This document shows, piece by piece, positions 30,225 through 54,482 of a DNA stretch of 59,103 bases. A program made the translations under genes and the position numbers. This stretch comes from an uncultured Gammaproteobacteria bacterium. GTDB taxonomy: Bacteria; Patescibacteriota; Microgenomatia; Daviesbacterales; UBA10151. The stretch is from contig CAYQAW010000007.1 in the NCBI GenBank assembly GCA_964415615.1, forward strand, positions 1 to 59,103, read 5' to 3'. Under the pieces are notes generated by a model that did not search any database, was not told the origin of the DNA, and worked only from the letters and a program-made list of their open reading frames with translations. Positions within the stretch are counted from its first letter, which is position 1; each line of letters starts with the position of its first letter.

Positions 30225-30258
30225 GGGTCGCATATAAGTCTCACCGAGGCGAATTGAC

Positions 30259-30337
30259 TAGCTTTCAGCTATCAGTCTTCAGTCATCAGACTAAAAATTT
30301 CAAAGTCTGAAAGCTGACAGCTGAAGACTGACGACTA
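30259..30337 (+). repeat. Empty heptamer-arm hairpin upstream of rplJ
   Basis: TAGCTTTCAGCTATCAGTCTTCAGTCATCAGAC-spacer-GTCTGAAAGCTGACAGCTGAAGACTGACGACTA. Confidence 0.9.
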
Positions 30338-30363
30338 CAAAACTCCTTGAAAGGAGTTTTTTT

Positions 30364-30885
30364 ATGAAAACAAGATTACAAAAAGAAGAAGCAGTTGTAA
30401 AATTATCAGAAAAATTAGGTAAAGCAAAAGCCATAGTTTTTGCAGACTATAAAGGCATGAGTATGAAGCAGCTCTCAGACTTAAGAAATAGCCTCCGTGA
30501 TGTTAATGGAGAATTTAGTATTACCAAAAATACTTTGCTATCCCGGGCACTACCAACTACCAACTACCAACTACCAACTGAATTAGAAGGCCCAACTGCC
30601 ACACTCTTTGCCTATGATGATGAAATATCCCCTATTAAAATTTTAGTCAAAGCCCTCAAAGATGCTTCCTTAGGTAAAATCAAAAGTGGGTTTTTAGGCA
30701 CCATAGCTTTAGAAGAAAGCAAAGTCCTGCAACTTGCAACCCTTCCTACCAAAGATGAACTCCGGGGCAAAACTGTGGGAGTATTAGTTGCTCCTTTGCA
30801 AGGCATTATTTCAGTTCTACAAGGCAACTTAAGAAATCTAGTATACACACTTTCCGAAATCCACAAAGCGAAGGGGGGTGAGTAA
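30364..30885 (+). CDS. rplJ: 50S ribosomal protein L10
   Basis: 'DYKGM', 'KNTL', 'LEGPTA', 'LATLPTK'. Confidence 0.96.
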   Translation: MKTRLQKEEAVVKLSEKLGKAKAIVFADYKGMSMKQLSDLRNSLRDVNGEFSITKNTLLSRALPTTNYQLPTELEGPTATLFAYDDEISPIKILVKALKDASLGKIKSGFLGTIALEESKVLQLATLPTKDELRGKTVGVLVAPLQGIISVLQGNLRNLVYTLSEIHKAKGGE

Positions 30886-30960
30886 ATAGCTATCAGTAGT
30901 CAGCTCTCAGCTATCCCGATTAAATCGGGACGACTGAAGACTGATGACTGAAAGCTAATT
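30886..30960 (+). repeat. Heptamer-arm hairpin between rplJ and rplL with a CCCGATTAAATCGGG palindrome at its apex
   Basis: Arms and central palindrome read directly from the sequence. Confidence 0.9.
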
Positions 30961-30963
30961 AAT

Positions 30964-32509: not shown

Positions 32510-33633
32510 GTATTACTTTCTAATACCTTCAAGGTTTCTCTAGCGCACTTCTCCCAAGAAAATCTCTTAACATTCTCGAGTCCTATTTTAATTAGCTTGA
32601 TTCTTAATTCATGATTCATGATTCTACCCATCCCACTTACTATATCATCAATATCATAGGGATTCACATAGACCGCTGCTCCGCCAGCTGGCGGACCCCC
32701 AACTTCTGGCATACTCGATAAATTAGAAGTAATCACAGGACATCCACAAGCTTGAGCTTCTAAAATTGGCAGTCCAAACCCTTCAAAAAGAGATGGAAAA
32801 ACAAAAGCAATTGCCCCAGAATATAAAGCAGGTAACTTTTCATCAGGAACATATCCCAAAAATTTAACCCTATCCTCTATCCCCAGCTTCTTTGGTAATT
32901 TATAAATTTCATCACTCATCCAACCTTTAGATCCTGCAATAATCAGTCTGAAAGCTGAAGACTGATGACTGAAAGCTTCTATCAATCTTTCTAAATTTTT
33001 CCTTGGTTGTACTGTACCTACAAAGAGGAAGTAGTTTTGATATATTAAGTTATATTTTTTAATAATTTGACTAACTTTGAACTTTGAACTTTGAACTTTG
33101 AACTTTTCTTTATCGTAGCCCTCATAAACCACACTAATCTTCTTTTCGTCTATATGTATTTTCCTTACCAAATCTTGTTTGGTAGCTTTTGACACAGCAA
33201 TAATCTTAGTGGCAGTTTTAAGCTGCCTCTTTTGCATAAATCCCAAATAAAGCCTTTGTTTAATCTGATGCATGGAAGGCAAATATTCAGAACCTAAATC
33301 ATGAACTGTTACTACAGTTTTAAGTCCTGGCTTTTTGATCACTGGCAAAGTGTGCGATGGAACAAACAACACATCCAAGTTATCCTTAAAAGTTTGCAAA
33401 GCCAAACCCCCTTGAGTCCATAATCTAAACCAGCGAATTTCTTTGATTTGGAAATTATTAGGCAATCCTACATTACTTGTAACGATCGTGGAAGTAATTG
33501 TAGCCCTTGTGTAAATTATATAAGTATTATTCTTATCAATCCTGGCTAAAGCTTTCAGTAGTTGATAAGAATAATACTCTGTCCCTGTTTTCTTATCAAC
33601 AAACGCTCTGGATCCATCAAAACCAATGACCAT
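32506..33633 (-). CDS. Glycosyltransferase family 4
   Basis: 'RKNLERL', 'EGFGLPILEA'. Confidence 0.92.
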   Translation of the reverse strand: MVIGFDGSRAFVDKKTGTEYYSYQLLKALARIDKNNTYIIYTRATITSTIVTSNVGLPNNFQIKEIRWFRLWTQGGLALQTFKDNLDVLFVPSHTLPVIKKPGLKTVVTVHDLGSEYLPSMHQIKQRLYLGFMQKRQLKTATKIIAVSKATKQDLVRKIHIDEKKISVVYEGYDKEKFKVQSSKFKVSQIIKKYNLIYQNYFLFVGTVQPRKNLERLIEAFSHQSSAFRLIIAGSKGWMSDEIYKLPKKLGIEDRVKFLGYVPDEKLPALYSGAIAFVFPSLFEGFGLPILEAQACGCPVITSNLSSMPEVGGPPAGGAAVYVNPYDIDDIVSGMGRIMNHELRIKLIKIGLENVKRFSWEKCARETLKVLESNT

Positions 33634-34657: not shown

Positions 34658-34718
34658 ATCGCTGGTGTCATTCTACCAACCCAAAAACATAGTCACAAGA
34701 TATACTAAAGGAGTCAAA

Positions 34719-34810
34719 AGCTATCAGCTATCAGCTATCAGCCATCAGCTTTCGGCTATCAGACTTAAATTGTGACCGTCTGACAGCTGACGACTGACTA
34801 CTGACGTCTA
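34719..34810 (-). repeat. Heptamer-arm hairpin starting at the PEGA gene stop codon
   Basis: (GCTATCA)n arm and inverted (CTGACAG/CTGACGA)n arm. Confidence 0.9.
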
Positions 34811-36028
34811 CTTAAGATTTATACCATAGAGGTTGGGTTCTGAGGCAGTAGGAGTTGGGAATGAGCTGATAATAACCAACCTGGATGAATCCAACCAGGG
34901 AAAAACAAAATTATCCTGAAAACTGCCAGCATAAATCACAGCTTTATTAGTACCATCAAAATCCACGACTGATATTGTTCCTTCTTCAATTAAGATAATG
35001 TGCATTGAATCTGGCAGCCAAATATGAGATTTGGCTGGAGGAATGGCATATTCTTTTCTATCTTTTAAATCATAAACTTTCACCGAGCTATCAGTCTTCA
35101 GTATCGCTTCGCCCGCCTTCAGCGTGGCTTCGCTGTCAGCTGTCAGACTTTTTGTTTTGTCTGACGACTGTGGGCCCCCGAAGGGGAAGACGACTGACGA
35201 CTGATTTACTACCATAAATTTGGTCTCGTCTGGCGACCAGCGGACATTGGCAGAACCAGAGGCAATCTGACGTAAATTAATATCTTTGATAGCCAAAATT
35301 CTTGAAGTATTCTTATTTTGAGTATCTTCATCCCAAGATTTTAAAGTAGATTGCAAAAGAGGTGTGATATCCCTGGGATCAGAATTCAATCTATCAAAAT
35401 CCAACAGATAATTATTATCATCTACCCCAATTTTATCGGGGTCTACTGTTGCCAAGACTTGTTTGGAATCAGAAGACCATTTAAGTGTGGCTTTGGAAAA
35501 ATCTGCGATTGTATTCTGGACAATCTGGTGTGGCTCTGAAGATCTGACAAAAGAAATTGGTTGATTCCGCATCTGGGTCCAAACCCAAATCCCACCTTTC
35601 TTAGTGAAACCGGGCACAATATAAGCAAGCTTGCTGCCATCAGGAGACAAAGTAGCATTATCTACTCCAGTAAAAGTTAATGGATAAATAGTAGGGATTG
35701 CCGGAAAAAGAGTTACCTTAATTGCTGTCACTAAACCTTCTTTTACAGACACTTGTTTCTCCCAAGGAATAAAACCTTCTTTTACCACCTTTACTGAATA
35801 ATCTTTAGGAGGCAGCGATGGAACTGTGGCATTAGTGGCAGTAGTCAGATGCCCATCTATATAAACTGAAGCAGCATCTGGCTCTGAAGAAACAGTGATA
35901 ATTCCAGTTCCAACTATCCTTTTTTCTTTTTGAGAAAAGGTATAACCTTTAGCGAAAAGTATAGCTATACCAGCTACAACTGCAATTACCAGCAAGGTTA
36001 CTATGGTAATAATGAATCTTTTACTCAT
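34808..36028 (-). CDS. PEGA domain membrane protein with beta-propeller-like C-terminus
   Basis: TM, then 'VSSEPDAASVYIDG...YSVKVVKEGF'; 'LSPDG', 'WSPD' repeats. Confidence 0.88.
   Translation of the reverse strand: MSKRFIITIVTLLVIAVVAGIAILFAKGYTFSQKEKRIVGTGIITVSSEPDAASVYIDGHLTTATNATVPSLPPKDYSVKVVKEGFIPWEKQVSVKEGLVTAIKVTLFPAIPTIYPLTFTGVDNATLSPDGSKLAYIVPGFTKKGGIWVWTQMRNQPISFVRSSEPHQIVQNTIADFSKATLKWSSDSKQVLATVDPDKIGVDDNNYLLDFDRLNSDPRDITPLLQSTLKSWDEDTQNKNTSRILAIKDINLRQIASGSANVRWSPDETKFMVVNQSSVVFPFGGPQSSDKTKSLTADSEATLKAGEAILKTDSSVKVYDLKDRKEYAIPPAKSHIWLPDSMHIILIEEGTISVVDFDGTNKAVIYAGSFQDNFVFPWLDSSRLVIISSFPTPTASEPNLYGINLK
35086..35202 (-). repeat. 117-bp palindromic composite element inserted in frame in the PEGA gene
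   Basis: Near-identical to 44851-44973. Confidence 0.92.
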
Positions 36029-40369: not shown

Positions 40370-41977
40370 TCACATCCTTTCAGGAGCTGAAACTCCTAAA
40401 AGTTTTAAATTATTCTCCATCGTAATTTTGGCAGAACTAACCAAAACAAGTCTTGCTTGAATCAGTTGCTCGCTTTCTGCCTGCAGCACTGGGCAATTTT
40501 CATAAAACTTATGAAATAAGTCTGCCAAATAAATTGCATACTCAGTAAGTTGTTGCACCTGATAATTTGCAGCTATCTCTTCTATCAGATCAGGAAAATT
40601 CAGCAGATGCTTGATTAAATCCAGCTCTGATTTAGAATTCAACAAACTGTAATCTATGTTTTCTACGCCTTCCATTTTATTAACAATATTTACCATTCTG
40701 ACATAAGCATACTGAACATAATATACTGGGTTTTTGTTTGATTGCTGTTTTAAAAGCTCCAGATCAAAATCCATATGGGTTTGGGGAGAAAACCTGAGAA
40801 GATAAAACCTAAAAGCATCTACTCCTACCTCATCCAAAACCTCCCTAGCAGTGACAAAATTACCAGCCCTCTTGCTCATTTTAACTATATCAATACCCCT
40901 TCTAACTCTAACATACTGATACAAAATTACTTTTAGTTTTTGGGGGTTAAAACCCAAGGCTCTAATGGCAGCCTGCATCCTGGGGATATGCCCATGATGA
41001 TTACTGCCCCACACATTTATCACCAAATCTGCGCCTGTTGTAAATTTTTGTTTGTGATACACAATATCAGAAGTAAAATAAGTATAATTTCCATCTGATT
41101 TTCTAATTACAGTCTCTCTATCTTTTAGAAACTCATCATTAGGAGCCAGCCACAAAGCTCCATCTTTTTCCTTAATTACTCCCTTTTTTTGTAATTCTTC
41201 TATAATTTCAGGCGCCTCTTTACGCAACTGCGACTCATGGACAACTAAGTCAAATTTAATGCCCATCGCATGAGCGTCAGCCATAATATCTTCATATATC
41301 AAATTCACAGCCATCCCGCCTATCTCCAAATCAGACTTATCTTCTATTTCAGTTTCCAATTCTTTAACCAAATCATTAATATATTCTCCCTGATATTGAT
41401 TTTGACTGGCTAAATTCCCATGATATTTAGCTTTAATTGTGGCACCCAAAGCTTCAACTTGTCCACCCACATTATTATCAAGATATTCTCTTAAAACTTC
41501 ATATCCACAAAATGCTAGAACATTGGCTACTGTATCACCTAGTGGTCCGCCTCTGGCATTACCTATATGTAAAGGCCCTGTTGGATTGGCAGAAATATAC
41601 TCTACTCTGGCCTTTTTTCCTTTACCAATTTCTGATTTTCCAAAACTTTCTTTTCTTTCCAAAATTTCTTTTAAATTATCTGCTAAATTTTCTGCCTTTA
41701 CAAAAAAATTAATAAATCCCCCACCAGCAATTTCTATTTTTTCTAAATAGTCTTTACTAGACTCTTGACTCTTGACTCTTGTCACTATTTCATTAGCAAT
41801 TTCTACTGGTGATTGCTTACTATTTTCTGGTTTTAGTTTAGTAAGCTGCAAGGCTACATTCGTGGTATAGTCCCCAAAAGCATAATTTTTGGGACTAGAT
41901 AAAACTATATCACTAGTTGGAAACCCCAAATCTTCAATTATCTTTTTAAGGTCTCCTAAAAGTATCTGCTTTAGCAT
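40370..41977 (-). CDS. argS: Arginine--tRNA ligase
   Basis: HIGH 'PLHIGNAR', 'KMSKRAG', DALR-like C-terminus. Confidence 0.96.
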   Translation of the reverse strand: MLKQILLGDLKKIIEDLGFPTSDIVLSSPKNYAFGDYTTNVALQLTKLKPENSKQSPVEIANEIVTRVKSQESSKDYLEKIEIAGGGFINFFVKAENLADNLKEILERKESFGKSEIGKGKKARVEYISANPTGPLHIGNARGGPLGDTVANVLAFCGYEVLREYLDNNVGGQVEALGATIKAKYHGNLASQNQYQGEYINDLVKELETEIEDKSDLEIGGMAVNLIYEDIMADAHAMGIKFDLVVHESQLRKEAPEIIEELQKKGVIKEKDGALWLAPNDEFLKDRETVIRKSDGNYTYFTSDIVYHKQKFTTGADLVINVWGSNHHGHIPRMQAAIRALGFNPQKLKVILYQYVRVRRGIDIVKMSKRAGNFVTAREVLDEVGVDAFRFYLLRFSPQTHMDFDLELLKQQSNKNPVYYVQYAYVRMVNIVNKMEGVENIDYSLLNSKSELDLIKHLLNFPDLIEEIAANYQVQQLTEYAIYLADLFHKFYENCPVLQAESEQLIQARLVLVSSAKITMENNLKLLGVSAPERM

Positions 41978-42944: not shown

Positions 42945-42954
42945 AAACCCTACA

Positions 42955-43470
42955 CTAACTTCCACGATCGTTGAATATTATGTAGTTTAAAGACTCATCT
43001 CCTGATTCAATCACCGCCACCCACTTCTCAATTTCTAAATTTTTGATCAGCCTTCGTAGTTTATCTGTAATATTTCTATTACTAACCCAAACACTTCTTT
43101 GCCAGTTTTTAAATCCCCAATCTTTTAGTCTCCTTCGAAAAAGATCTCTGATCCCCCTTCTATTCTCTGGAATATCAAAAAGAACTAGCCTGTATAACCC
43201 ATCCCATTTTTCATCTTCTACTCCTAAAAAATCTTTGCCCAACTGAGTCAATTTAAAAATAATCTGTCCTTCTTTAACATCTTTTTCAATATAACCATCT
43301 AATCTCAATCTTCTTAGAGCTTGAGCTAAAGAAGATTTCTTAAGCTCAGGGATATCATAATGATATCTGTAGTGGTGAAAAGCAAAATCTTCCAACCTGC
43401 AATAACCATCAATTGCCTTTTCAAGGGTAAACAATACCGCACTGCTAATGCTTTTCTTCCTTAAGCCCAT
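42955..43470 (-). CDS. PaaX-like regulator (wHTH plus Cas2-like ferredoxin domain)
   Basis: 'FKLTQLG', 'WDGLYRLVLFDIPE..R..RDLFR..L...GF...QRSVW'. Confidence 0.8.
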   Translation of the reverse strand: MGLRKKSISSAVLFTLEKAIDGYCRLEDFAFHHYRYHYDIPELKKSSLAQALRRLRLDGYIEKDVKEGQIIFKLTQLGKDFLGVEDEKWDGLYRLVLFDIPENRRGIRDLFRRRLKDWGFKNWQRSVWVSNRNITDKLRRLIKNLEIEKWVAVIESGDESLNYIIFNDRGS

Positions 43471-43514
43471 GCTTTAACCCTACATTATTTGTAACGATCG
43501 TGTCAAGAATTGTA

Positions 43515-44596: not shown

Positions 44597-47095
44597 CTAG
44601 TTGCCAGTAACAAAGCTAACTATTTTACCAGGGATATACACAATTTTTTTCACAGATTTTCTATCCAAAAATTTCCCCACCTTTTTACTGCCTTTGGCCA
44701 TTTTTTCTACAACCTCTCTATTTCCTACTATATCCTTCTGTATCACTAATACATCTCTAACTTTTCCATTAACTTGAACAGCTATTGATATTTCTTCTTC
44801 CTCCAGGAATTTACTAGCAAATTTGGGCCAAGACTGCTGATGTATAGAGAAGCTATCAGTCTTCAGTATCGCTTCGCCCGCCTTCGGCGTGGCTTCGCTG
44901 TCAGCTGTCAGACTTTTTTCTGATTTTTTGTCTGACGACTGTGGGCCCCCGAAGGGGAAGACGACTGACGACTTTAATATCTCCCATAACTCTTCTGTAA
45001 TATGAGGCGCAAATGGAGCTAGTAGCATCAAGAAAGTTTTATACTCCTCTGCAGAGATCTCTGCTTTCCTGGAAAGATAATTCAACCATTCCATGAGGCT
45101 AGAAATAGCAGTGTTAAACTTTAACTGCTCAATATCCTCTGTCACTTTCTTAATCGTCTTATGCATTATCCTTAAATCGTTCATCGTTAATCGTTCATCG
45201 TTAATCGTTAATCGTTCCTGTAACATCCAGACTCTTTGTAAAAAGTGATATGCTCCATTAACTCCATCAGGATTCCAAGAAGTAACTATATCAAAAGGGC
45301 CTAAAAACATTAAATAAAGCCTGATAGCATCGGCACCATAACTTTTTACTTCTTCATCAGGATTGACCACATTCCCCTTAGATTTGCTCATCCTGGCTCC
45401 ATCAGGACCTAAAATCGTACCATGGTGAATCCTTTTTTTGGCATATTCATCAAAATTTATTAACCCTAACTCTTTAAAAATCATGGTAAAAAACCTGGAA
45501 TATAAAGCATGGCCTAAAGTATGCTCAGGTCCCCCAATATAAATCTCGAGCGGCATCCATTCAGCAGCAATATTTTTATCAAAGATTGCCTGGTCGTTTT
45601 CCGGATCCAGGTATCTAAAAAAATACCAGGCAGAATCCACAAAAGTATCCATAGTTTCAACTTCCCTTTTAGCAGGCCCACCACATTCAGGACATTCTGT
45701 ATTAACCCAATCCTCTGCTGTAGCCAATGGAGGCTTACCATGAGGAGCATAATCCACCTTGTAGGGAAGTTCTACTGGTAAATCTTTTTCTGGAACAGGA
45801 ACAGCCCCATCTTTATCACAATAAATCATTGGGATAGGTGTGCCCCAATAACGCTGTCTTGAGATTGACCAATCATGAAGATGATAGTTGGTGGTTCTTT
45901 TTCCTAAATTATGTTGCTCTAAATAATCTGATATTTTTTCCCTGGCTACCTTGTTTAGCAATCCATTATATTCTCCGCTATTTACCATTTCTCCATTGCC
46001 TATATAAGCTGCTTTGGATATATCCCCGCCTTTAACAACTTCTCTTATCAATAGATCAAACTTTTTGGCAAACTCATAATCTCTTTGGTCATGGGCTGGC
46101 ACGCCCATAACTGCACCTGTTCCATAGCCTACTAATACATAATCAGCTACCCAAACTGGAAGTTTCTCACCATTAATTGGACTTTTGACATAAGAACCAG
46201 TAAATACTCCTGTTTTTTCTTTATTTTCTTTTCTTTCCAGCTCGCTTTTCTTTTTTGCTTGTCGGATATACTCTTCGACCGCTAATTTTTGTTCAGGCAT
46301 AACTAAAGCGGCTAGCAAAGAATTTTCAGGACTGATAACTATAAATGTAACCCCAAATATCGTGTCCTGACGGGTACCAAAGATTTCTATGTTATCAAAC
46401 TTTATCACTATACCTTCTGATCTGCCAATCCAATCATTTTGCCCTACTCTTAAAGACTTAGGCCAATCTGCCTGAGGTGGCTCTTGCCAGAGTAATTTAT
46501 CTGCAAAAGCAGTAATCTTAAAAAACCACTGGTCAATTTCTTTTTGGACCACCTCTGTTCCGCATCTCCAACATTTACCGTCCTCAACATTTTCATTAGC
46601 AAGTACAGTTTGATCTTTTGGACACCAGTTTGACAGTAATTTTCCCCTGTAAGCCCAACCTTTTTCTAGCATTTTCAAAAAAATCCATTGATTCCACTTA
46701 TAATACTTAGGATCACAAGCTACCATAGTTTTTGTCCAATCAATTGATGTACCTAAAGTTTCAAATTGATCTCTCATCCGCTCCATATTTTTATATGTCC
46801 AGTCTCGGGGGTGAATGCCGTTTTTAATGGCAGCATTCTCAGCAGGCAGCCCAAATGCATCAAAGCCATTAGGAAAAAGCACATTAAAACCCTGCCTGGA
46901 TTTAAACCTGGCTAAAATATCACCCATGGTAAAAGTAAACCAATGACCCATATGTAGATCGCCAGAGGTATAAGGCAGCTCGACTAAAACATAGTATTTG
47001 TCTGTCGATTTAGAAAGATCAGTTAAATAAAGACTCTCCTCTCCCCACTTCTTCTGCCACTTGGGCTCTATATCTTGAGGAATGTATTTCTTCAT
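44597..47095 (-). CDS. leuS: Leucine--tRNA ligase
   Basis: 'LHMGH', CP1 editing domain 'GTGAVMGVPAHDQRD', 'RMSKSKGN'. Confidence 0.98.
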   Translation of the reverse strand: MKKYIPQDIEPKWQKKWGEESLYLTDLSKSTDKYYVLVELPYTSGDLHMGHWFTFTMGDILARFKSRQGFNVLFPNGFDAFGLPAENAAIKNGIHPRDWTYKNMERMRDQFETLGTSIDWTKTMVACDPKYYKWNQWIFLKMLEKGWAYRGKLLSNWCPKDQTVLANENVEDGKCWRCGTEVVQKEIDQWFFKITAFADKLLWQEPPQADWPKSLRVGQNDWIGRSEGIVIKFDNIEIFGTRQDTIFGVTFIVISPENSLLAALVMPEQKLAVEEYIRQAKKKSELERKENKEKTGVFTGSYVKSPINGEKLPVWVADYVLVGYGTGAVMGVPAHDQRDYEFAKKFDLLIREVVKGGDISKAAYIGNGEMVNSGEYNGLLNKVAREKISDYLEQHNLGKRTTNYHLHDWSISRQRYWGTPIPMIYCDKDGAVPVPEKDLPVELPYKVDYAPHGKPPLATAEDWVNTECPECGGPAKREVETMDTFVDSAWYFFRYLDPENDQAIFDKNIAAEWMPLEIYIGGPEHTLGHALYSRFFTMIFKELGLINFDEYAKKRIHHGTILGPDGARMSKSKGNVVNPDEEVKSYGADAIRLYLMFLGPFDIVTSWNPDGVNGAYHFLQRVWMLQERLTINDERLTMNDLRIMHKTIKKVTEDIEQLKFNTAISSLMEWLNYLSRKAEISAEEYKTFLMLLAPFAPHITEELWEILKSSVVFPFGGPQSSDKKSEKSLTADSEATPKAGEAILKTDSFSIHQQSWPKFASKFLEEEEISIAVQVNGKVRDVLVIQKDIVGNREVVEKMAKGSKKVGKFLDRKSVKKIVYIPGKIVSFVTGN
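44851..44973 (-). repeat. 123-bp palindromic composite element inserted in frame in leuS
   Basis: Near-identical to 35086-35202. Confidence 0.92.
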
Positions 47096-47198: not shown

Positions 47199-47369
47199 TC
47201 TCTTTTCATATTCTCTTTTCACAAGCTAAACACTTTGTTATCTAATTATAATTGATATAGTTTATACATATTCTGATCTATTCTAGACTCTAGACTCTTG
47301 ACTCTAGTCTCTATTTTGTGTTCATGCGGTAATTATCTTGATTTTTTTTGATATAGAATGAGAGATTGA

Positions 47370-48339: not shown

Positions 48340-48410
48340 GAGAGACTAGTCGCTAGAGTCTAGTAGCTAGTATAGTATCTTGACTCTTGACTCTAGACTC
48401 TTGTCACTTT
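48340..48410. repeat. Heptamer-arm hairpin of the TAGAGTC/GACTCTA family (related arm at 47281-47312)
   Basis: GAGACTAG..TAGAGTCTAG arm versus (CTTGACT/CTAGACT)n arm. Confidence 0.7.
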
Positions 48411-48428
48411 CTGTCGTATCATCTACTT

Positions 48429-49115
48429 ATGCCCACTCTGCCCTTGGATTTAACCACCCTACTGTTAATTTTTACCATCGTTTTAATCACAATTCTCTAT
48501 CTTCGTGAATATAACCAGAGAAAAAAACTTGAATCTTCTGAAGAGAGGTTCTTAGAACAATTCAAGGAGAAAGGCTGGAATACTTTACATAAATCCATCC
48601 AAAAATCTCAGGATTTACTGGGACAGGCAGAACTGGAAGGCATAAAAGTAGTAGCTGGCAGCAAAATTGAAACCTCCAAAATGGAGCAGGATTTTTCAAA
48701 AGAAATCTCTCAGTCTCTACTTGCATCTAAGCAAACTATAGCTTCTGCCCAAAATCAGCTTTTACAATTTATGACAGACTTACAAAAAAGAAGCGCTGAA
48801 TTTGAGGAAGCTAGCAAAAAAACAGGAGAACAAAGAATCAACCAGCTATTTGGCAGAATTGAAGAAAGACTAGCTGATCTGCTGGTACAGACAGAGCAAA
48901 GAACCACCTCTTCCATTGAACTGGAGTTAAAAAGCACCAGACAACTAATTGAAACTTATAAAAACGAGCAGCTTAAACTGATTGATGAAAATATTGTGGC
49001 CATGATGGAACAAACTTTAGGTATAGTCTTAAGCAAAAAACTGTCTTTAAAAGACCAACTGGATATTATTTATGAAGCACTTGAGAAAGCTAAGGTGGAG
49101 AAATTCATTGTATAA
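48429..49115 (+). CDS. Single-TM coiled-coil protein, F0 subunit b-like
   Basis: N-terminal TM, long charged helix, position in the atp operon. Confidence 0.55.
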   Translation: MPTLPLDLTTLLLIFTIVLITILYLREYNQRKKLESSEERFLEQFKEKGWNTLHKSIQKSQDLLGQAELEGIKVVAGSKIETSKMEQDFSKEISQSLLASKQTIASAQNQLLQFMTDLQKRSAEFEEASKKTGEQRINQLFGRIEERLADLLVQTEQRTTSSIELELKSTRQLIETYKNEQLKLIDENIVAMMEQTLGIVLSKKLSLKDQLDIIYEALEKAKVEKFIV

Positions 49116-49208
49116 ATAGCTATCAGCTATCAGTCTTCAGTCATCAGACAAGAAAAGTCTGACAGCTGACAGCTGACAGCTGACAGCGAAGCGATACTGA
49201 AGACTATT
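49116..49208 (+). repeat. Empty heptamer-arm hairpin filling the stop-to-start gap
   Basis: TAA|ATAGCTATCAG...GAC-aagaaaa-GTCTGACAG...GAAGACTATT|ATG. Confidence 0.92.
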
Positions 49209-49682
49209 ATGGATGACACGCTGGCCGTTATTTTAAAAGACACCTATTCCTTATCCCAACTCAAACATAGACTGAGGATCTTAAAATCCTCTCTTTTGAG
49301 AGCATTTTTTGGAGGAGAAAACCTCTCTTTTACTCCTGAACAACTAAGCTGGCTCAAATCCCTGCCCACTGAGTTTTATCAAAAATTTAACAAAGATAAT
49401 GTTTACCAAATCTTTACTGAAATTGACAAGGAGATGGGCAAACTTAAAACCTTAACTATGTATTTAACTTTTGAACCAGATGAGATGACTTTAGCCCAAC
49501 TAGGCACCTATATCAGAACCAATTTTGGTCCAAATTTCCTTTTGGATATTAAATTGAAACCAGACCTTATTGCTGGGCCTGCTTTAGTATGGAAAGGAAT
49601 TTATAAAGATTATTCTCTGAAAGCTAAACTGGAAAGTAAAAATACAGAAATTTTGCAGGAATTTAAGAAGTTCTTAAGGTAG
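49209..49682 (+). CDS. atpH: ATP synthase delta/OSCP-like subunit (divergent)
   Basis: C-terminal 'LDIKLKPDLIAG...KDYSLKAKL' resembles the delta C-domain; directly upstream of atpA. Confidence 0.6.
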   Translation: MDDTLAVILKDTYSLSQLKHRLRILKSSLLRAFFGGENLSFTPEQLSWLKSLPTEFYQKFNKDNVYQIFTEIDKEMGKLKTLTMYLTFEPDEMTLAQLGTYIRTNFGPNFLLDIKLKPDLIAGPALVWKGIYKDYSLKAKLESKNTEILQEFKKFLR

Positions 49683-49770
49683 TCGTCAGCCATCAGTTTT
49701 CAGCTATCAGACTAAAAAATTAAAAATCTGAAAGCTGACAGCTGAGAGCGAAGCGATACTGAAGACTATT
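49680..49770 (+). repeat. Empty heptamer-arm hairpin, atpH-atpA
   Basis: Arm begins with the TAG stop and ends GAAGACTATT 3 nt before ATG. Confidence 0.92.
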
Positions 49771-49773
49771 ATT

Positions 49774-51222
49774 ATGAATCAAAACGAAGTAGGTTATGTT
49801 GTATCAAGCAGGGATTTTCTAGTTTACCTAAATGGCTTCCCCACCATCAGAGTTAATGACATGGTGGAATCTGATAATAATCTCCGTGGCTGGGTTAATT
49901 CTACCCTAGAAGATAAAATTGAAGTTCTGATGTTAGATGAAGGAGAAATCAAACCAAAGCAACAATTTAAAAAACTACCTAACCGTTTAGGAATTGCTGT
50001 AGGAAATTCATTGCTAGGGCGGGCAGTCAACCCTTTAGGAATACCTATTGATGGTAAGGGCCTACTTTCCCATACTAAATCTACTGATATCTCAGAACTG
50101 GACAAAGAGGCCCCTGGAATAGAATCCAGAGAATTTATTACCACCCAATTTTTAACAGGAATAACTTTAATTGATACTTTGATTCCTCTGGGACAAGGCC
50201 AAAGAGAACTGGTTTTGGGAGATGCCCATTCTGGTAAAACAGGCTTCTTGATTGATACAGTTATAAATCAAAAAAACACTGGTGTAATTTGTGTGATAGC
50301 CTCAATTGGCAAACCTGCTGTGACAGTCAGGAATTTGATTGATACCCTAAAAAACAATGGTGCTTTGGATTATACAATTGTGGTTGCCACATCTTCTTCT
50401 GAACCAGCGCCTCTAATTTTTTTAACTCCTAAAACTGCCATGACTATTGCTGAATATTTCCAAAAACAGGGCAAAGATGTGCTGTTGATATTAGATGATT
50501 TAGGCTCGCATGCCAAAATCTACCGGGAAATTTCCCTGCTCGGCAACAAAGCCCCAGGCAGAGAATCTTATCCTGGAGATATTTTTTACCAGCATGCTCA
50601 TTTACTGGAAAGGGCTGGGAATTTTTTGCCACAATTTGGCGGAGGTTCTATCACAGCTCTACCTGTAATCGAGCTTAATTTAAATGATTTTACTACTCTT
50701 ATCCCTACAAATGTGATGTCCATGACTGATGGACATTTAATGTTTAAAGCTTCTATGCGTTCCCAGGGACAAATACCAGCCATAGATATTTCTTTATCAG
50801 TATCCAGAGTAGGCAGGCAAACTCAAAACCATTTAACTAATTTACTTTCTACTAAAATCAGGCAAGTTCTATCTGAAGCAGCAGATTTGGAAACAGTTTC
50901 CAGATTTTCTTCAGAACTACCAGCAGAAACTCAGCTGATATTAAAAAGAAGAGATTTAATCATGGAAATTTTAAAACAAGAATCTTTAACTGCTGTAGTC
51001 AAACAAATTCAAGTTATACTTCTGGCACTCCCCTTTACCAAATTCTTGCAGGATAAAAACAAAGCTTTTGTTGAAAAATATAAACCAATAATTATTGAAA
51101 ACTTTCTAAAAAATCCTGGACTTGTACCAATTACCAAATCCATCAACCAGTTAAAAAGTGACGAGGAATTAATAAAAATGCTGGAGGGAGCAGGACCAGT
51201 ACTGACAAAAATCTGCCAATAG
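49774..51222 (+). CDS. atpA: F1 ATPase alpha subunit (divergent)
   Basis: 'GQGQRELVLGD..SGKT', 'PGRESYPGDIFY', 'SMTDG', 'SVSRVG'. Confidence 0.93.
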   Translation: MNQNEVGYVVSSRDFLVYLNGFPTIRVNDMVESDNNLRGWVNSTLEDKIEVLMLDEGEIKPKQQFKKLPNRLGIAVGNSLLGRAVNPLGIPIDGKGLLSHTKSTDISELDKEAPGIESREFITTQFLTGITLIDTLIPLGQGQRELVLGDAHSGKTGFLIDTVINQKNTGVICVIASIGKPAVTVRNLIDTLKNNGALDYTIVVATSSSEPAPLIFLTPKTAMTIAEYFQKQGKDVLLILDDLGSHAKIYREISLLGNKAPGRESYPGDIFYQHAHLLERAGNFLPQFGGGSITALPVIELNLNDFTTLIPTNVMSMTDGHLMFKASMRSQGQIPAIDISLSVSRVGRQTQNHLTNLLSTKIRQVLSEAADLETVSRFSSELPAETQLILKRRDLIMEILKQESLTAVVKQIQVILLALPFTKFLQDKNKAFVEKYKPIIIENFLKNPGLVPITKSINQLKSDEELIKMLEGAGPVLTKICQ

Positions 51223-51310
51223 CTATCAGCTATCAGTCTTCAGCCATCAGACTAAAAATTTCAGAGTCTGAAAGCTGAAAGCTGAGAGCGAAGCGATACT
51301 GAAGACTATT
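51220..51310 (+). repeat. Empty heptamer-arm hairpin, atpA-atpG
   Basis: TAG stop inside the arm; GAAGACTATT directly before ATG. Confidence 0.92.
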
Positions 51311-52159
51311 ATGACTATAAAACAAATTGATGCAGCGCTGGAAGAAGGACAATCTTTAAAACAGATTGCTCAAGCTTATTCTGAAATTGCCAATCTGAAA
51401 ATTAAAAGAATCAGAACAGAGGTGGAAAGAAACAGGGTCTTTTTTAAAGAGATTGAAGGAGTTTATGCTTTGATTAAAAATCTGGCTGTCAGGAGAAAAA
51501 CAAATATTACCAAACCTAAAAAGACAATCAGCATAGTTTTAACTTCAAATCACAGGTTTTATGGCAACATTAACTCTGATCTATTAAAGTTTTTTGTAAG
51601 TTCTACTCAAAACTTAGATACAGATAGAATCATGCTGGGCAAGGCTGCAATAGATTATTTCAGGGCTGATCCCATATTTAAAGATTACCAGGAAATAACA
51701 TTAAAAGAGGACCAGCCAGATAGTGTTGAGCTGTTGGCTTTAACAAATATGGTCAAGGATTATAACCAAGTACTGGTTTTTTATTCCAGTATGAAAAGTT
51801 TACTAGTCCAGCAACCTGTGGTAACAGATATCACAGCCTCAAGTACACTCGTAGCAAGCGATCCCAATCTCCATCCTCAAAACAAAGAAGGATTTAAATT
51901 TATCTTTGAGCCGGATTTAGGTAAAATATTGCATTTTTTTGACAGTCAAATCATCACTCTACTAATTGAGGGGACATTTTTAGAATCTGAACTCTCCAGA
52001 ACAGCTTCCCGTTTTGTTTCCATGGATGGTGCAGAAACGCAGGCAAATAAATTTCTTAAAGATTATCAATTGATTAAAGCATATGCTAAAAGAAACATGG
52101 ACAACAATACAATTTTAGAAAATTTTGCTACTATGATAGCTGTAAGAAAGGAGCATTAG
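51311..52159 (+). CDS. atpG: F1 ATPase gamma subunit (divergent)
   Basis: 'IVLTSNHRFYGNIN', 'SELSRTASRFVSMDGA'. Confidence 0.88.
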   Translation: MTIKQIDAALEEGQSLKQIAQAYSEIANLKIKRIRTEVERNRVFFKEIEGVYALIKNLAVRRKTNITKPKKTISIVLTSNHRFYGNINSDLLKFFVSSTQNLDTDRIMLGKAAIDYFRADPIFKDYQEITLKEDQPDSVELLALTNMVKDYNQVLVFYSSMKSLLVQQPVVTDITASSTLVASDPNLHPQNKEGFKFIFEPDLGKILHFFDSQIITLLIEGTFLESELSRTASRFVSMDGAETQANKFLKDYQLIKAYAKRNMDNNTILENFATMIAVRKEH

Positions 52160-52279: not shown

Positions 52280-53779
52280 ATGTCAAATCCAACTGTTCAA
52301 AATAGTCCAAATATCGCCTCCACACCTTCCCTAAACCATCAAAATCGGGCCCGCGGAACCATCACCTCCGTCAATGGCCAAATTGCTACTGTTGAGATTG
52401 ACGGCGATATTTTTCCTGAACTTTTTGAGATACTGGCTGCACCCTCTGACCCCTCAGTAATTTTGGAAGTTTTTTCCCAGTCTGAACTTTCAATTTTTGT
52501 CCAGATTTTAAGTAATCCGGATAAACTATTCAGGGGCATGCAAGTTGTAGGCACTGGATCTGATTTAAAAGTCCCTGTGGGGTCTCCTGTTTTAGGACGG
52601 GTTATAGATTTATTTGGAATTCCCAAAGATAATGGCAAGGCAATAACTACAGATAAAAAAAGCTCTATTTATTCCAAAGCGCCATCTTTAAATATCGTTA
52701 AATCAACCTATCAGGTTTTAGAAACAGGCATCAAGGCTATAGATTTCCTGACCCCCATACAAAAAGGTGGAAAAGTGGGCTTTATAGGAGGAGCAGGTGT
52801 AGGAAAAACTATTTTACTTACAGAACTCATGCACAACATTACCTTAAGACCAGCCAGTTCACACCTCCCAGGTGAGCATAAGCTGCAGACTGAATCACAC
52901 CTGGGAGGTGAAAGTAAACCAGTCTATTCTGTATTTGCAGGTGTAGGAGAAAGAATTAGAGAAGGACAAGAGTTGGTTCAACGTTTACAAGAATCAGGAG
53001 TTTTACCTAAAACAATCCTGGTGCTGGGACAAATGAATGAAAATGCAGCTATCCGTTTCAGGATAGCTTTAGCAGCAGCAGCCCAGGCAGAATATTTTAG
53101 GGATGAAATAAAATCAGATGTGCTATTTTTTATTGATAATATGTTCAGGTATGTTCAGGCAGGAGCTGAGGTAGCAACGCTTCTGGGTACTATCCCCTCT
53201 GAACAAGCCTATCAGGCTACTCTTCAAACAGAGGTAGCAACCCTAGAAGACAGACTAATCCCTACAGGAAATGGGGCGATTACTTCTTTCCAGAATGTGT
53301 ACGTGCCAGCAGATGAAATTTCCGATGCTGGAGTAGTAGCTGTTATGTCGCTTCTGGATAATGCCATAGTACTATCACGTTCTGTTGCCCAAAAAGGTAT
53401 TTACCCTCCTATAGACTTATTCCAGTCCTCTTCTTCTACTGCTTCCAGGTCTTTCTTAGGTGAAGTGCATTTTAAAGCTTTAACAGAGTTTCAAAAGATT
53501 CTGGAAAACTATAACAAACTATCACACATTGTAGCAATTGTCGGAGAAGAAGAATTATCCCCGGAAAACAGGATACTTTATAACAGGACCAAAAAAATAA
53601 TAAATTATCTAACCCAGCCTTTTTTTATGACCGAAAAACAAACTGGCAAAAAAGGAGTTTATGTTTCCAGAGAGACTAGTGTAAAAGATATCGCAATAAT
53701 ACTTTCTGGCTCATTAGATAACACCCCAGCAGAAAAATTTATGTACATTGGATCTCTGGCTGACGCCAAGATAATATAG
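52280..53779 (+). CDS. atpD: F1 ATPase beta subunit
   Basis: 'GGAGVGKT', 'GVGERIREG', 'GQMNE', 'IDNMFRY', 'YVPADE'. Confidence 0.96.
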   Translation: MSNPTVQNSPNIASTPSLNHQNRARGTITSVNGQIATVEIDGDIFPELFEILAAPSDPSVILEVFSQSELSIFVQILSNPDKLFRGMQVVGTGSDLKVPVGSPVLGRVIDLFGIPKDNGKAITTDKKSSIYSKAPSLNIVKSTYQVLETGIKAIDFLTPIQKGGKVGFIGGAGVGKTILLTELMHNITLRPASSHLPGEHKLQTESHLGGESKPVYSVFAGVGERIREGQELVQRLQESGVLPKTILVLGQMNENAAIRFRIALAAAAQAEYFRDEIKSDVLFFIDNMFRYVQAGAEVATLLGTIPSEQAYQATLQTEVATLEDRLIPTGNGAITSFQNVYVPADEISDAGVVAVMSLLDNAIVLSRSVAQKGIYPPIDLFQSSSSTASRSFLGEVHFKALTEFQKILENYNKLSHIVAIVGEEELSPENRILYNRTKKIINYLTQPFFMTEKQTGKKGVYVSRETSVKDIAIILSGSLDNTPAEKFMYIGSLADAKII

Positions 53780-53855
53780 CTTTCAGTCATCAGTCTTCAG
53801 CTTTCAGACTTTTCTGATTTGTCTGATGACTGACAGCTGATAGCTGACGACTATT
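53777..53855 (+). repeat. Empty heptamer-arm hairpin, atpD-atpC
   Basis: TAG...GACGACTATT|ATG. Confidence 0.92.
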
Positions 53856-54122
53856 ATGCAAACCTTACATGTCAGAATCATCTCCCCTCAACAACTAATC
53901 TTAGATACTACTGCTTCCTCAGTCAGCTCCAAAAACCCCCAGGGGAATTTTGATATCTTACCCCAACATGCTAATTTTATAACCATTGTAGAAAATGAAC
54001 CTATTGTGGTAAGAACGCTGGACCAAAAATCTGTAACTTTTAAATTTCCTCTAGCTATAATTTTAACAAGAGAAAATAAGGTGAGTATTTATACATATAT
54101 CCAGCCTCAATTAGATAAGTAG
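53856..54122 (+). CDS. atpC: F1 epsilon subunit, N-terminal beta domain only
   Basis: 'LHVRIISP', 'GNFDILPQHANFIT'; 88 aa, no C-terminal helices. Confidence 0.85.
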   Translation: MQTLHVRIISPQQLILDTTASSVSSKNPQGNFDILPQHANFITIVENEPIVVRTLDQKSVTFKFPLAIILTRENKVSIYTYIQPQLDK

Positions 54123-54414: not shown

Positions 54415-54482
54415 TTAGGGCAGAGCAGCCTAGATTTTTGCAGACGGAAGCCTGAATCCCTCTTTTTTTTACTTTTGTTTTT

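What the first reader, a model, noticed from the sequence alone, without database searches (positions are those of the whole stretch)
44851..44973. The same ~40-aa repeat-derived peptide is inserted in frame in LeuRS and in an unrelated PEGA protein
Seen: leuS has 'SSVVFPFGGPQSSDKKSEKSLTADSEATPKAGEAILKTDS' (123 bp) between 'ELWEILK' and 'SIHQQSWP', and the PEGA gene has 'SSVVFPFGGPQSSDKTKSLTADSEATLKAGEAILKTDS' (117 bp, 35086-35202). The DNA is near-identical apart from the central spacer. Both lengths are multiples of 3, both have the same orientation and reading frame, and both are built from the heptamer arms plus nested palindromes. Established: LeuRS normally has only a short loop here, and Rickettsia palindromic elements are a precedent for repeats adding peptides to essential proteins. 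Inference: recent mobility of the hairpin family into coding sequence, tolerated as a surface loop or removed at the RNA level.
Basis: partly seen in the sequence, partly recalled or inferred. Interest (0 to 1): 0.75.

Follow-up and report, generated by a model that had tools for sequence, protein, structure and literature searches.

The report
Nested hairpin repeats translated inside genes
A 123-bp hairpin repeat carrying smaller nested repeats is read in frame as a floppy ~40-residue loop in the essential leucyl-tRNA synthetase and in an unrelated envelope protein of a Candidatus Daviesbacteria (CPR) genome. Both sites were already occupied in related species, and the two copies look alike because one recently overwrote the other.

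Summary
Window 44851-44973 (leuS) and 35086-35202 (PEGA gene) differ by one substitution and a 6-nt loop indel, and both are in frame.

The segment is an ORF-less member of a family of hairpins with heptamer arms (TCAGnnn ... nnnCTGA). At least eight more copies lie between genes in the window. It carries three nested mini-modules of 10, 21 and 19 nt. AlphaFold2 predicts both inserts as disordered loops: the LeuRS tether before the C-terminal domain, and a beta-hairpin loop in the PEGA protein.

It is not a recent jump. The same element sits at the same leuS junction in three other Daviesbacteria genomes, and a simpler hairpin sits at the same PEGA junction in the closest relative. The window's PEGA copy keeps its own loop but has leuS-type arms and modules, which points to ectopic gene conversion.

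Three consecutive CTGA heptamers close all three reading frames. Every copy inside a gene has at most two, so the inserts are most likely translated rather than excised.

One full-length family member (18325-18740) carries a PF05635 "23S rRNA intervening-sequence protein" gene in its loop. This links the family to IVS elements.

Verdict: a new CPR variant of Rickettsia-palindromic-element-like insertion.

The parts
44597..47095 (-). leuS (leucyl-tRNA synthetase, 832 aa), host gene 1
   Evidence: PDB phmmer hit to T. thermophilus LeuRS, E=4e-230; Pfam tRNA-synt_1, tRNA-synt_1_2, Anticodon_1
44851..44973 (-). Composite 123-bp hairpin element in frame in leuS. It encodes SSVVFPFGGPQSSDKKSEKSLTADSEATPKAGEAILKTDS and lies between the last helix of the anticodon-binding domain and the C-terminal domain.
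   Evidence: RNA fold -48.9 kcal/mol, z=-4.4; AF2 pLDDT<50 at residues 712-747
44960..44973 (-). Outer part of the 5' arm (AG TCGTCAG TCGTC)
44941..44959 (-). Nested 19-nt module TTCCCCTTCGGGGGCCCAC, inserted at heptamer phase TC^AG
   Evidence: Absent from the L002, L004 and L082 leuS copies. Found at the same heptamer phase in 6 other loci, 5 of them inside ORFs in different frames.
44930..44940 (-). Inner part of the 5' arm (AG TCGTCAG AC)
44914..44929 (-). Loop AAAAAATCAGAAAAAA (10 nt in the PEGA copy, 7 nt in the L002 leuS copy)
44898..44913 (-). Inner part of the 3' arm (GT CTGACAG CTGACAG): two CTGA heptamers
44867..44897 (-). Nested 10-nt module CGAAGC/GATA, itself split by the 21-nt module CACGCCGAAGGCGGGCGAAGC (44871-44891). 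It shifts the phase between CTGA heptamers 2 and 3, which leaves one frame open.
   Evidence: The 29-nt core was found in 11 loci (12 matches) of other Daviesbacteria-like genomes; 7 further matches lie inside ORFs, in four frame/orientation combinations.
44851..44866 (-). Outer part of the 3' arm (CTGAAGA CTGATAG CT)
34808..36028 (-). PEGA-domain protein gene (406 aa), host gene 2
   Evidence: Pfam PEGA E=9e-16; conserved synteny with sortase and mreB
35086..35202 (-). Second composite copy (117 bp), in frame in a loop between two beta-strands. 19-nt module at 35170-35188; 31-nt module at 35102-35132; loop at 35149-35158.
   Evidence: AF2 pLDDT<50 at 278-313, between strands 270-274 and 316-320; orthologous simpler hairpin in L101
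18325..18740 (+). Full-length family member: heptamer arms (18325-18360 and 18703-18740) enclosing a 121-aa PF05635/TIGR02436 '23S rRNA IVP' ORF (18361-18726)
30256..30343 (.). Intergenic ORF-less hairpin upstream of rplJ
30883..30963 (.). Intergenic hairpin filling the rplJ stop to rplL start spacer; its loop carries the CCCGATTAAATCGGG mini-palindrome
34715..34810 (.). Intergenic hairpin directly after the PEGA stop codon
47114..47199 (.). Intergenic hairpin 22 nt upstream of the leuS start
49114..49210 (.). Intergenic hairpin with the 10-nt CGAAGCGATA module; fills a stop-to-start spacer
49677..49772 (.). Intergenic hairpin with the 10-nt module, upstream of atpA
51217..51312 (.). Intergenic hairpin with the 10-nt module, between atpA and atpG
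53774..53857 (.). Intergenic hairpin between atpD and atpC; about 95% identical, by eye, to its orthologue in L002

Best explanation
The 123-bp segment is a resident, ORF-less copy of a family of hairpins with heptamer arms that is shared across Candidatus Daviesbacteria. The 5' arm is made of TCAGnnn units and the 3' arm of nnnCTGA units. The family's full-length form carries a PF05635 'intervening-sequence protein' gene in its loop, so it has the architecture of a 23S rRNA IVS but lies outside rRNA.

The leuS copy has picked up three smaller nested modules: a 10-nt CGAAGCGATA, a 21-nt module inside that, and a 19-nt module at a TC^AG heptamer core. It is transcribed and translated with the gene and forms a disordered loop of about 40 residues in the flexible tether before the LeuRS C-terminal domain.

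Copies survive inside genes only through a filter. The site must tolerate a loop, and the element must offer a stop-free frame. A normal arm with 3 or more consecutive CTGA heptamers has TGA in all three frames (7 mod 3 = 1). Only variants in which the 10-nt module interrupts the run after two heptamers are readable.

The PEGA copy is an older hairpin that is orthologous to the one in related genomes. Its arms and modules, but not its loop, were recently overwritten from the leuS copy 9.7 kb away, by ectopic gene conversion or template switching. That is why the two copies are nearly identical.

Shown: the anatomy, the occupancy of both sites in relatives, the mosaic structure, the frame logic, and the predicted disorder. 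Inferred: translation, the conversion mechanism, and neutrality of the peptide.
For: Anatomy and family membership.

LeuRS site: it is the 3-residue linker of T. thermophilus LeuRS, and AF2 gives pLDDT below 50 only at residues 712-747.

PEGA site: it is a loop between two beta-strands with pLDDT below 50.

Same element at the same nucleotide junction in leuS of L002, L004 and L082.

PEGA orthologues: L101 (86% identical) has the hairpin at the same junction, with the same loop AAAACAAAAR but without the 19- and 21-nt modules and with different arm heptamers. L002, L004 and L082 have an empty 7-residue loop.

Mosaic: the window's PEGA copy has a PEGA-type loop and leuS-type arms at about 10 diagnostic positions, plus both modules. 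The 21-nt module is present in the leuS copies of L002 and L004 but in no PEGA orthologue whose DNA was read (L101, L103).

Frame logic: 3 of 6 frames are open. In the census, the 20 intergenic hairpins have 3-4 consecutive heptamers in both arms, while all 9 rows for copies inside genes (6 distinct copies detected; the window leuS copy fell outside the detector's spacing limit but one search shows the same for it) have only 2 CTGA heptamers in a row on the coding strand.

The modules occur independently in many other ORFs, in different frames and orientations: UvrA, RluA, a CCA-adding-like enzyme and others.

No Rfam family matches at the site.
Against: There are no expression or proteome data, so translation is inferred.

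The leuS element is much more conserved in DNA than its host gene. Third codon positions are 91%, 83% and 74% identical, against 54%, 41% and 43% for the rest of the gene, in comparisons with L002, L004 and L082 (p = 3e-6, 2e-7 and 1e-3). A passive neutral insert inherited vertically would not behave this way.

The four LeuRS lineages that carry the element are not each other's nearest relatives. Homing or re-acquisition may therefore contribute.

Gene conversion that spares the loop needs two tracts or loop-specific repair.

Parallel site-specific nested insertions into both copies cannot be fully excluded, because the 19-nt module does show target-phase specificity.
Confidence: 0.7

Rival explanations
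1. One reading: the whole composite recently transposed from the hairpin family (or from one gene) into both coding sequences.
For: The two copies are 99% identical outside the loop, and closer to each other than to any intergenic copy. The family is clearly mobile on evolutionary time scales: IVP cassettes sit at non-orthologous sites in the window, L002, L101 and L084.
Against: Both sites were already occupied by the hairpin in relatives, at identical junctions. The PEGA copy retains the loop sequence of its L101 orthologue. No target-site duplication is visible at either junction.
Confidence: 0.1
2. The hairpin is a functional, selected RNA or DNA element inside the genes. Examples would be an RNase III or IVP recognition site that tunes LeuRS expression, a translational pause at a domain boundary, or a useful lengthening of the LeuRS tether. 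It would be kept or re-acquired for that reason.
For: DNA-level conservation far exceeds that of the host gene, including at third codon positions. Occupancy recurs at exactly the domain boundary in many lineages. The RNA structure is strong. IVS stems of the same architecture are RNase III substrates in Coxiella (PMC4990558).
Against: Most orthologues (about 60%) have the empty LGEKY linker. Others carry unrelated hairpins or remnants. Intergenic copies are equally conserved, so the conservation is a property of the family and not of the leuS site. The encoded peptide is low-complexity and predicted disordered.
Confidence: 0.15
3. The segment is removed from the transcript (IVS-like or intron-like), so the protein lacks the peptide.
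For: The family has the architecture of 23S rRNA intervening sequences, which RNase III excises. CPR rRNA genes are rich in excised insertions, some of which encode 23S_rRNA_IVP (PMC11270868).
Against: IVS excision does not re-ligate, so it would destroy an mRNA. All copies inside genes have lengths divisible by three and avoid stop codons, including the special break in the CTGA heptamer run. No group I or group II intron signal was found. At 123 nt the segment is too small for a self-splicing intron.
Confidence: 0.04
4. Assembly artefact: repeat-induced chimera or collapse.
For: The window comes from a metagenome-assembled genome (GCA_016180885.1). The element is repeated.
Against: Unique flanks continue in frame on both sides in both genes. 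The same insert is at the same site in independent assemblies from other studies: L002, L004 and L082 for leuS; L101/L102, L103 and at least 10 database proteins for PEGA.
Confidence: 0.01

Closest known systems
Rickettsia palindromic elements (RPEs; Ogata et al. 2000, cited from my own knowledge; reviewed in PMC10969869)
   Same: A palindromic repeat of about 100-150 bp, present both between genes and in frame within unrelated, even essential, protein-coding genes. It adds a peptide at positions compatible with the fold.
   Different: No sequence relationship was tested or is expected. Here the arms are built from tandem heptamers, the element carries nested mini-modules, the host is a CPR bacterium, and a full-length relative carries a PF05635 gene.
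Cyanobacterial small dispersed repeats and heptameric STRR arrays (Elhai et al. 2008, Genome Res 18:1484, pmid 18599681; reference seen, paper not held, content from my own knowledge)
   Same: Very small (about 20-nt) hairpin-like modules are found nested inside other repeats, including heptamer arrays, at fixed positions, and sometimes inside genes.
   Different: Different phylum and different sequences. Here the heptamers form inverted arms of a hairpin rather than only direct arrays.
23S rRNA intervening sequences (IVS) encoding S23p/PF05635, e.g. Coxiella burnetii (PMC4990558); also found in CPR rRNA insertions (PMC11270868)
   Same: A long terminal-inverted-repeat stem with heptameric repeats next to the ORF, and a PF05635 four-helix-bundle ORF in the loop (window 18325-18740). 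Period-7 arms flank PF05635 genes in 68 loci from many phyla.
   Different: The window's copies lie between or inside protein-coding genes, not in helix 25 or 45 of 23S rRNA. The leuS and PEGA copies have no ORF. RNase III excision is untested.
MITEs and REP/REPIN elements (PMC3184786, PMC3116915, PMC3733652, PMC5896051)
   Same: Short, non-autonomous, hairpin-forming repeats that are mostly intergenic. There is a possible autonomous/non-autonomous relationship (IVP-carrying versus ORF-less hairpins).
   Different: No target-site duplication. No transposase or RAYT gene was seen in the window. The candidate partner protein is a four-helix bundle with no known catalytic activity.
TAACTGA heptamer repeats of Beggiatoaceae and cyanobacteria (PMC4679880)
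   Same: Tandem heptamers with a CTGA core next to start codons. One Daviesbacteria LeuRS insert (L083) uses TCAGTTA, the reverse complement of TAACTGA.
   Different: Those are almost all direct repeats upstream of genes. Here they form inverted arms of hairpins.

Membership tests
RPE-like in-frame palindromic insertion | Multi-copy palindromic element of about 100-150 bp | tested here: met
   Two composite copies and at least 9 further hairpins of the family in 59 kb; folds at -49 to -52 kcal/mol
RPE-like in-frame palindromic insertion | Inserted in frame in unrelated protein-coding genes without disrupting them | tested here: met
   leuS and PEGA ORFs are intact and their flanks align to orthologues
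RPE-like in-frame palindromic insertion | Insert lies at a surface or loop position compatible with the fold | tested here: met
   AF2 gives pLDDT<50 coil only at the inserts; the flanking domains are confident. This is a prediction, not a solved structure.
RPE-like in-frame palindromic insertion | Sequence homology to Rickettsia RPE families | not tested
   No RPE sequences were compared; no Rfam hit at the site
RPE-like in-frame palindromic insertion | Insert is transcribed and translated | not testable with these tools
   Indirect evidence only: frame is kept and stop codons are avoided
MITE | Terminal inverted repeats | tested here: met
   AGTCGTCAGT... versus ...ACTGATAGCT; the imperfect inverted repeat extends through the arms
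MITE | Target-site duplication flanking the element | tested here: not met
   No direct repeat at either junction. Instead, about 4 ancestral codons are replaced.
MITE | Related autonomous element encoding a transposase | tested here: inconclusive
   The only ORF-bearing relative carries PF05635, which is not a known transposase. The rest of the genome was not available.
23S rRNA IVS element | Long stem from terminal inverted repeats, with heptameric repeats | tested here: met
   Coxiella precedent
23S rRNA IVS element | PF05635 (S23p/IVP) ORF in the loop | tested here: not met
   Met for 18325-18740. The leuS and PEGA copies have a 10-16-nt loop and no ORF.
23S rRNA IVS element | Located in helix 25 or 45 of 23S rRNA | tested here: not met
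   There is no rRNA in the window; all copies lie between or inside protein-coding genes
23S rRNA IVS element | Excised by RNase III | not testable with these tools
   Needs RNA data or an in vitro assay
SDR-type very small nested mobile repeats | Module of about 20 nt found nested in several different host repeats and genes at a defined position | tested here: met
   The 19-nt module is always at phase TC^AG in 7 contexts. The 29-nt core lies inside three different host repeat families and in ORFs, in 4 frames/orientations.
Group I/II intron or intein | Catalytic RNA structure, or intein splicing motifs | tested here: not met
   No Rfam match. The segment is 123 nt. The peptide is low-complexity with no homologue.

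The most novel reading that the evidence does not exclude
The hairpins with heptamer arms are miniature, ORF-less derivatives of IVS-type elements. In this reading the PF05635 four-helix-bundle protein is the trans-acting factor that recognises the heptamer stems and drives their spread, homing or homogenisation. The targets would be rRNA helices, stop-to-start junctions in operons, and permissive loops such as the LeuRS tether. This would explain why copies stay 81-95% identical across species whose genes are saturated at synonymous sites, and why the same element appears at the same leuS nucleotide in non-sister lineages.
Probability: 0.25. Interest if true: 0.85.

Novelty: new variant of a known kind. 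Interest (0 to 1): 0.6.

Why it matters
CPR (Patescibacteria) bacteria have tiny genomes, yet this one tolerates repeat-derived peptides in an essential aminoacyl-tRNA synthetase and in several other proteins. The same few loops are hit again and again across the clade.

This bears on three things:
- It offers a natural map of insertion-tolerant sites, such as the LeuRS tether.
- It warns annotators and phylogeneticists that length variation in CPR core proteins is often selfish DNA rather than adaptation.
- It gives a concrete link between the long-unexplained PF05635 "intervening sequence protein" elements and a family of miniature hairpins. That makes the 30-year-old idea that IVSs are mobile elements testable.

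The frame rule also shows how a nested insertion can convert an untranslatable repeat into a translatable one: three CTGA heptamers close all frames, and a 10-nt nested module reopens one.

Tried and rejected
- Searching 5.8 billion proteins with the 40-aa peptide found nothing, because no three 5-mer words are shared. It gave no census of other host proteins; DNA pattern scans of the modules did that job instead.
- The search for related loci with LeuRS returned mostly distant phyla. Only L002 and L004 were useful.
- The inserts of L083 and L084 have no matches elsewhere in their own short contigs. Whether each insert resembles its own genome's repeats could only be shown for the window and L002.
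- I tested whether copies inside genes avoid long perfect helices, as possible RNase III avoidance. They do not: intergenic and genic copies both have 5-7-bp helices broken once per heptamer, with longest runs of 6-14 bp and 6-7 bp respectively. The idea was dropped.
- The NJ tree of LeuRS is star-like, so I rely only on well-separated sister pairs and nearest-neighbour identities and not on a count of gains.
- Viral contig scans for the 29-nt module and for the arm found nothing, so there is no evidence for a phage vector.
- Rfam found nothing at the site.
- Elhai et al. 2008 is not held, so the SDR comparison rests on memory.
- Literature searches found no paper on such repeats in CPR. Absence from the held library is not proof of absence.
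- The genome-contig scan did not contain the window's own genome, so other composite copies in it could not be sought.
Full report
**1. The observation**

On the coding (minus) strand, leuS (44597-47095) reads ...ELWEILK-SSVVFPFGGPQSSDKKSEKSLTADSEATPKAGEAILKTDS-FSIHQQSWP.... The PEGA gene (34808-36028) reads ...FMVVNQ-SSVVFPFGGPQSSDKTKSLTADSEATLKAGEAILKTDS-SVKVYDL....

The DNA copies (123 and 117 nt) differ by one C/T substitution and a 6-nt difference in the central A-rich loop. Long sub-patterns occur exactly twice in the window, against zero expected in shuffles.

The window is about 37% G+C; by eye the element is much more G+C-rich (not computed). The source is contig JACPAI010000004.1 of MAG GCA_016180885.1. 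By LeuRS and PEGA homologues the organism is a Candidatus Daviesbacteria, in the CPR/Microgenomates group.

**2. Anatomy**

The element is a hairpin. Its 5' arm is made of TCGTCAG-type heptamers (general form TCAGnnn) and its 3' arm of nnnCTGA heptamers.

At least eight ORF-less hairpins of the same family lie between genes: 30256, 30883, 34715, 47114, 49114, 49677, 51217 and 53774. Those between co-directional genes fill the spacer from the stop codon to the next start codon, to within -2 to +7 nt.

Compared with these, the copies inside genes carry three nested modules:
- A 10-nt CGAAGC|GATA after the second CTGA heptamer. It is also present in the intergenic copies at 49114, 49677 and 51217.
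- A 21-nt CACGCCGAAGGCGGGCGAAGC inserted inside that module (44871-44891).
- A 19-nt TTCCCCTTCGGGGGCCCAC inserted in a heptamer core, TC^AG (44941-44959).

The mRNA strand folds at -48.9 kcal/mol for leuS and -51.8 kcal/mol for PEGA (z about -4). No Rfam family matches.

**3. Where the inserts sit in the proteins**

In the alignment to T. thermophilus LeuRS, window residue 707 pairs with residue 794 and window residue 750 with residue 798. About 42 residues therefore replace 3, exactly between the anticodon-binding domain and the C-terminal domain. From my own knowledge, this is a flexible tether.

AlphaFold2 with 77 homologues gives a mean pLDDT of 87.9. The only stretch below 50 is 712-747, predicted as coil.

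In the PEGA protein the insert (pLDDT<50 at 278-313) lies between strands 270-274 and 316-320.

**4. Neither insertion is recent**

- *leuS.* L002 (Daviesbacteria STD1_94) has the same element at the same nucleotide junction. Its LeuRS is 77% identical to the window's over conserved columns, or 74% in the best tblastn segment. It lacks only the 19-nt module and has a shorter loop. L004 (about 57%) has the element with the 21-nt module. L082/P0106 (about 60%) has it with only the 10-nt module.
- *PEGA.* The closest relative, L101 (RIFCSPLOWO2_02_FULL_36_7, 86% identical protein by BLASTP), has a hairpin at the same junction (VVNQ|...|SVKVY) and with the same loop (AAAACAAAAG). It has no 19- or 21-nt module, and its arm heptamers differ. 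L103 carries the 19-nt module in a different heptamer and a different frame. At least 10 of 120 orthologues have hairpin-type peptides in this loop. L002, L004 and L082 have an empty 7-residue loop.

**5. Why the two window copies are nearly identical**

In a six-way alignment, the window's PEGA copy has the PEGA-type loop. At about 10 diagnostic arm positions it matches window leuS and its L002 orthologue (L082 at some of them), not the PEGA orthologues.

It also shares both nested modules at the same positions. The 21-nt module is present in the leuS copies of L002 and L004, but in no PEGA orthologue whose DNA was read (L101, L103).

Between the window and L101, the PEGA insert is no more conserved than the rest of the gene (84% versus 90% nucleotide identity). 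That fits an orthologous copy that was partly overwritten.

The most parsimonious reading is ectopic gene conversion or template switching from the leuS copy to the PEGA copy, 9.7 kb away and in the same orientation. Parallel targeted nested insertions plus about 10 coincident substitutions is the far less likely alternative.

**6. Translated or excised?**

Only 3 of 6 frames of the composite are stop-free, and only 1 of 3 on the coding strand. The shared frame and orientation are therefore weak evidence for anything special.

More telling is the heptamer arithmetic. Because 7 mod 3 = 1, three consecutive CTGAnnn units place TGA in all three frames. In my census, all 20 intergenic hairpins have 3-4 consecutive heptamers in both arms. 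All 9 rows for copies inside genes have only two CTGA heptamers in a row on the coding strand, the run being broken by the 10-nt module. These rows represent 6 distinct copies at three independent loci. The window leuS copy fell outside the detector's spacing limit but shows the same.

The distance between heptamers 2 and 3 becomes 17 or 38 nt (both 2 mod 3), which leaves one frame open. Such avoidance of stop codons is pointless if the segment were removed from the mRNA, so translation is the likely fate.

**7. The phenomenon is general in this clade**

Among 120 Daviesbacteria LeuRS sequences, most have the linker L-G-E-K-Y. Roughly 40% carry inserts of 8-45 residues at exactly this site, from several repeat families (SSVV..., QLSVL..., VILR...PES...DSGQARM, NGQW......INDERLTMNDW). 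There are further hotspots after residues about 235, 363 and 632.

Filled and empty states are interleaved, including in well-separated sister pairs: P0061/62, P0059/86, P0014/20 and P0004/05.

The 29-nt core of the 21-nt module was found in 11 loci (12 matches) of other genomes. One match is the L002 leuS copy. Seven further matches lie inside long ORFs, in four different frame/orientation combinations, nested in three different host repeat families.

The 19-nt module was found in 6 other loci, always at heptamer phase TC^AG. Hosts include UvrA (same frame, VVFPFGGPQSS), an RluA-type synthase and three other large ORFs.

In the window itself:
- NusG has an arm read in frame at its N-terminus.
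- A GT4 glycosyltransferase has an arm-like segment and a different 36-nt palindrome in frame.
- leuS has a second in-frame array, (AACGATK)x6 at 45170-45217.

**8. Link to IVS elements**

At 18325-18740, a hairpin of the same family encloses a 121-aa PF05635/TIGR02436 "23S rRNA intervening-sequence protein" ORF. The ATG directly follows ...TCAGAC, and the stop codon lies in the 3' arm.

Equivalent cassettes lie at non-orthologous places in L002 (between argS and a metallophosphatase gene, where the window has a 3-nt gap), in L101 (between mreB and GT4) and in L084 (in the atp operon, with a different arm family). The cassettes therefore move.

In 49 PF05635 loci from many phyla, the ORF flanks pair better than displaced controls (Wilcoxon p=2.6e-6; two controls gave no valid duplex energy and were not excluded). 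In 68 such loci the flanks show a period-7 signal of 0.41/0.39, against 0.26 in controls.

The Coxiella IVS has the same features: an inverted-repeat stem, GACAGAT heptamers, an S23p ORF and RNase III excision (PMC4990558). PF05635 ORFs also occur in CPR rRNA insertions (PMC11270868).

The leuS and PEGA inserts are thus best described as miniature, ORF-less, IVS-type stems.

**9. What remains unexplained**

The leuS element is far more conserved than its host gene. Third codon positions are 91%, 83% and 74% identical, against 54%, 41% and 43% for the rest of the gene, in comparisons with L002, L004 and L082.

Orthologous intergenic hairpins look about 85-95% identical by eye (sequences; not computed). 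The four element-bearing LeuRS lineages are not each other's nearest relatives.

Some sequence-specific process must act on the family: constraint, homogenisation or homing. The PF05635 protein is an obvious but untested candidate.

Insert-bearing LeuRS sequences mostly end ...[N/D]W|SIH, replacing the ancestral GEKY rather than merely splitting it. No target-site duplication is seen.

**10. Comparison with known systems, and verdict**

In behaviour this is closest to Rickettsia palindromic elements. In fine structure it is closest to cyanobacterial nested small dispersed repeats (from memory; reference). In architecture it is closest to 23S rRNA IVS elements.

It fails the MITE criterion of a target-site duplication, and it fails the IVS criteria of rRNA location and, for these two copies, an ORF.

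I found no description of such elements in CPR genomes in the held literature.

Verdict: a real feature and a new variant of a known kind. Interest is moderate to high, mainly for the recurrent hotspots, the frame-opening rule and the link to IVS elements.

Noticed in passing
window 18325-18740: A PF05635/TIGR02436 '23S rRNA intervening-sequence protein' gene (18361-18726) sits exactly in the loop of a heptamer-arm hairpin of the same family. Equivalent cassettes are at non-orthologous sites in L002, L101 and L084. Period-7 inverted arms flank PF05635 genes in 68 loci from many phyla.
   Followed up: partly
window 30883-30963, 49114-49210, 49677-49772, 51217-51312, 53774-53857: Intergenic hairpins between co-directional genes (rplJ|rplL and the atp operon) span from the upstream stop codon, which often lies within the first arm bases (A)TAGCT, to 2-7 nt before the downstream ATG. 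Folding would bring the stop and start codons together, which might preserve translational coupling.
   Followed up: partly
window 23469-23530 (NusG start; arm at 23484-23524): The N-terminal extension of Nus[19 protein letters not shown]..., is a 5' heptamer arm (CAGCTATCAGCTATCAGCTATCAGTCTTCAGAT) read in frame. No clear partner arm follows.
   Followed up: no
window 32945-32977 and 33464-33502 (GT4 glycosyltransferase gene 32506-33633): 32945-32977 ('SHQSSAFR') is a perfect 33-nt complement of the arm at 53778-53810 and is conserved in the L082 orthologue. 33464-33502 is a different, CGATCG-centred 36-nt palindrome in frame (a 7-residue insert relative to L082), with copies at 42946-42984 and 43476-43514.
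   Followed up: partly
window 45170-45217 (inside leuS): Six tandem heptamers (AACGATK) encode ERLTINDERLTMND in the anticodon-binding domain. L002 has EKLKVKSEKLKVED at the same place, and the peptide INDERLTMNDW appears at the tether of another orthologue (P0029). This is a second repeat-derived segment in the same gene.
   Followed up: partly
L005:10001-12448 (leuS of a Patescibacteria MAG) and window 30915-30930: An 18-nt palindrome, CCCCGATTAAATCGGGGT, is in frame ('PRLNRG') four codons after an empty tether in L005 LeuRS. The same CCCGATTAAATCGGG forms the loop of the window hairpin at 30883-30963. This is another tiny module shared across genomes.
   Followed up: no
window 44867-44897; L085-L095: The nested module contains two copies of GCGAAGC, the sequence of the extraordinarily stable DNA mini-hairpin d(GCGAAGC) (PMC13037366). 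This hints at a single-stranded-DNA stage in its spread.
   Followed up: no
window 41751-41790, 47277-47316, 48373-48412; 30553, 54547, 55065, 55100: Further heptamer repeat families: GACTCTT/GACTCTA arrays and CCAACTA arrays.
   Followed up: no
window 54456-59102: An open frame of more than 1549 codons runs off the window end. It has an N-terminal MerR/excisionase-like HTH-looking stretch (judged by eye) and many GNVGIGT(T/S) repeats.
   Followed up: no
L001, L004, L086, L087, L092 (records titled 'uncultured Gammaproteobacteria', binchicken MAGs): L001 is 37% G+C and carries the 19-nt module, L086, L087 and L092 carry the 29-nt core, and L004 has leuS-PEGA-GT4 synteny typical of Daviesbacteria. 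The taxonomic labels of these records are probably wrong.
   Followed up: no
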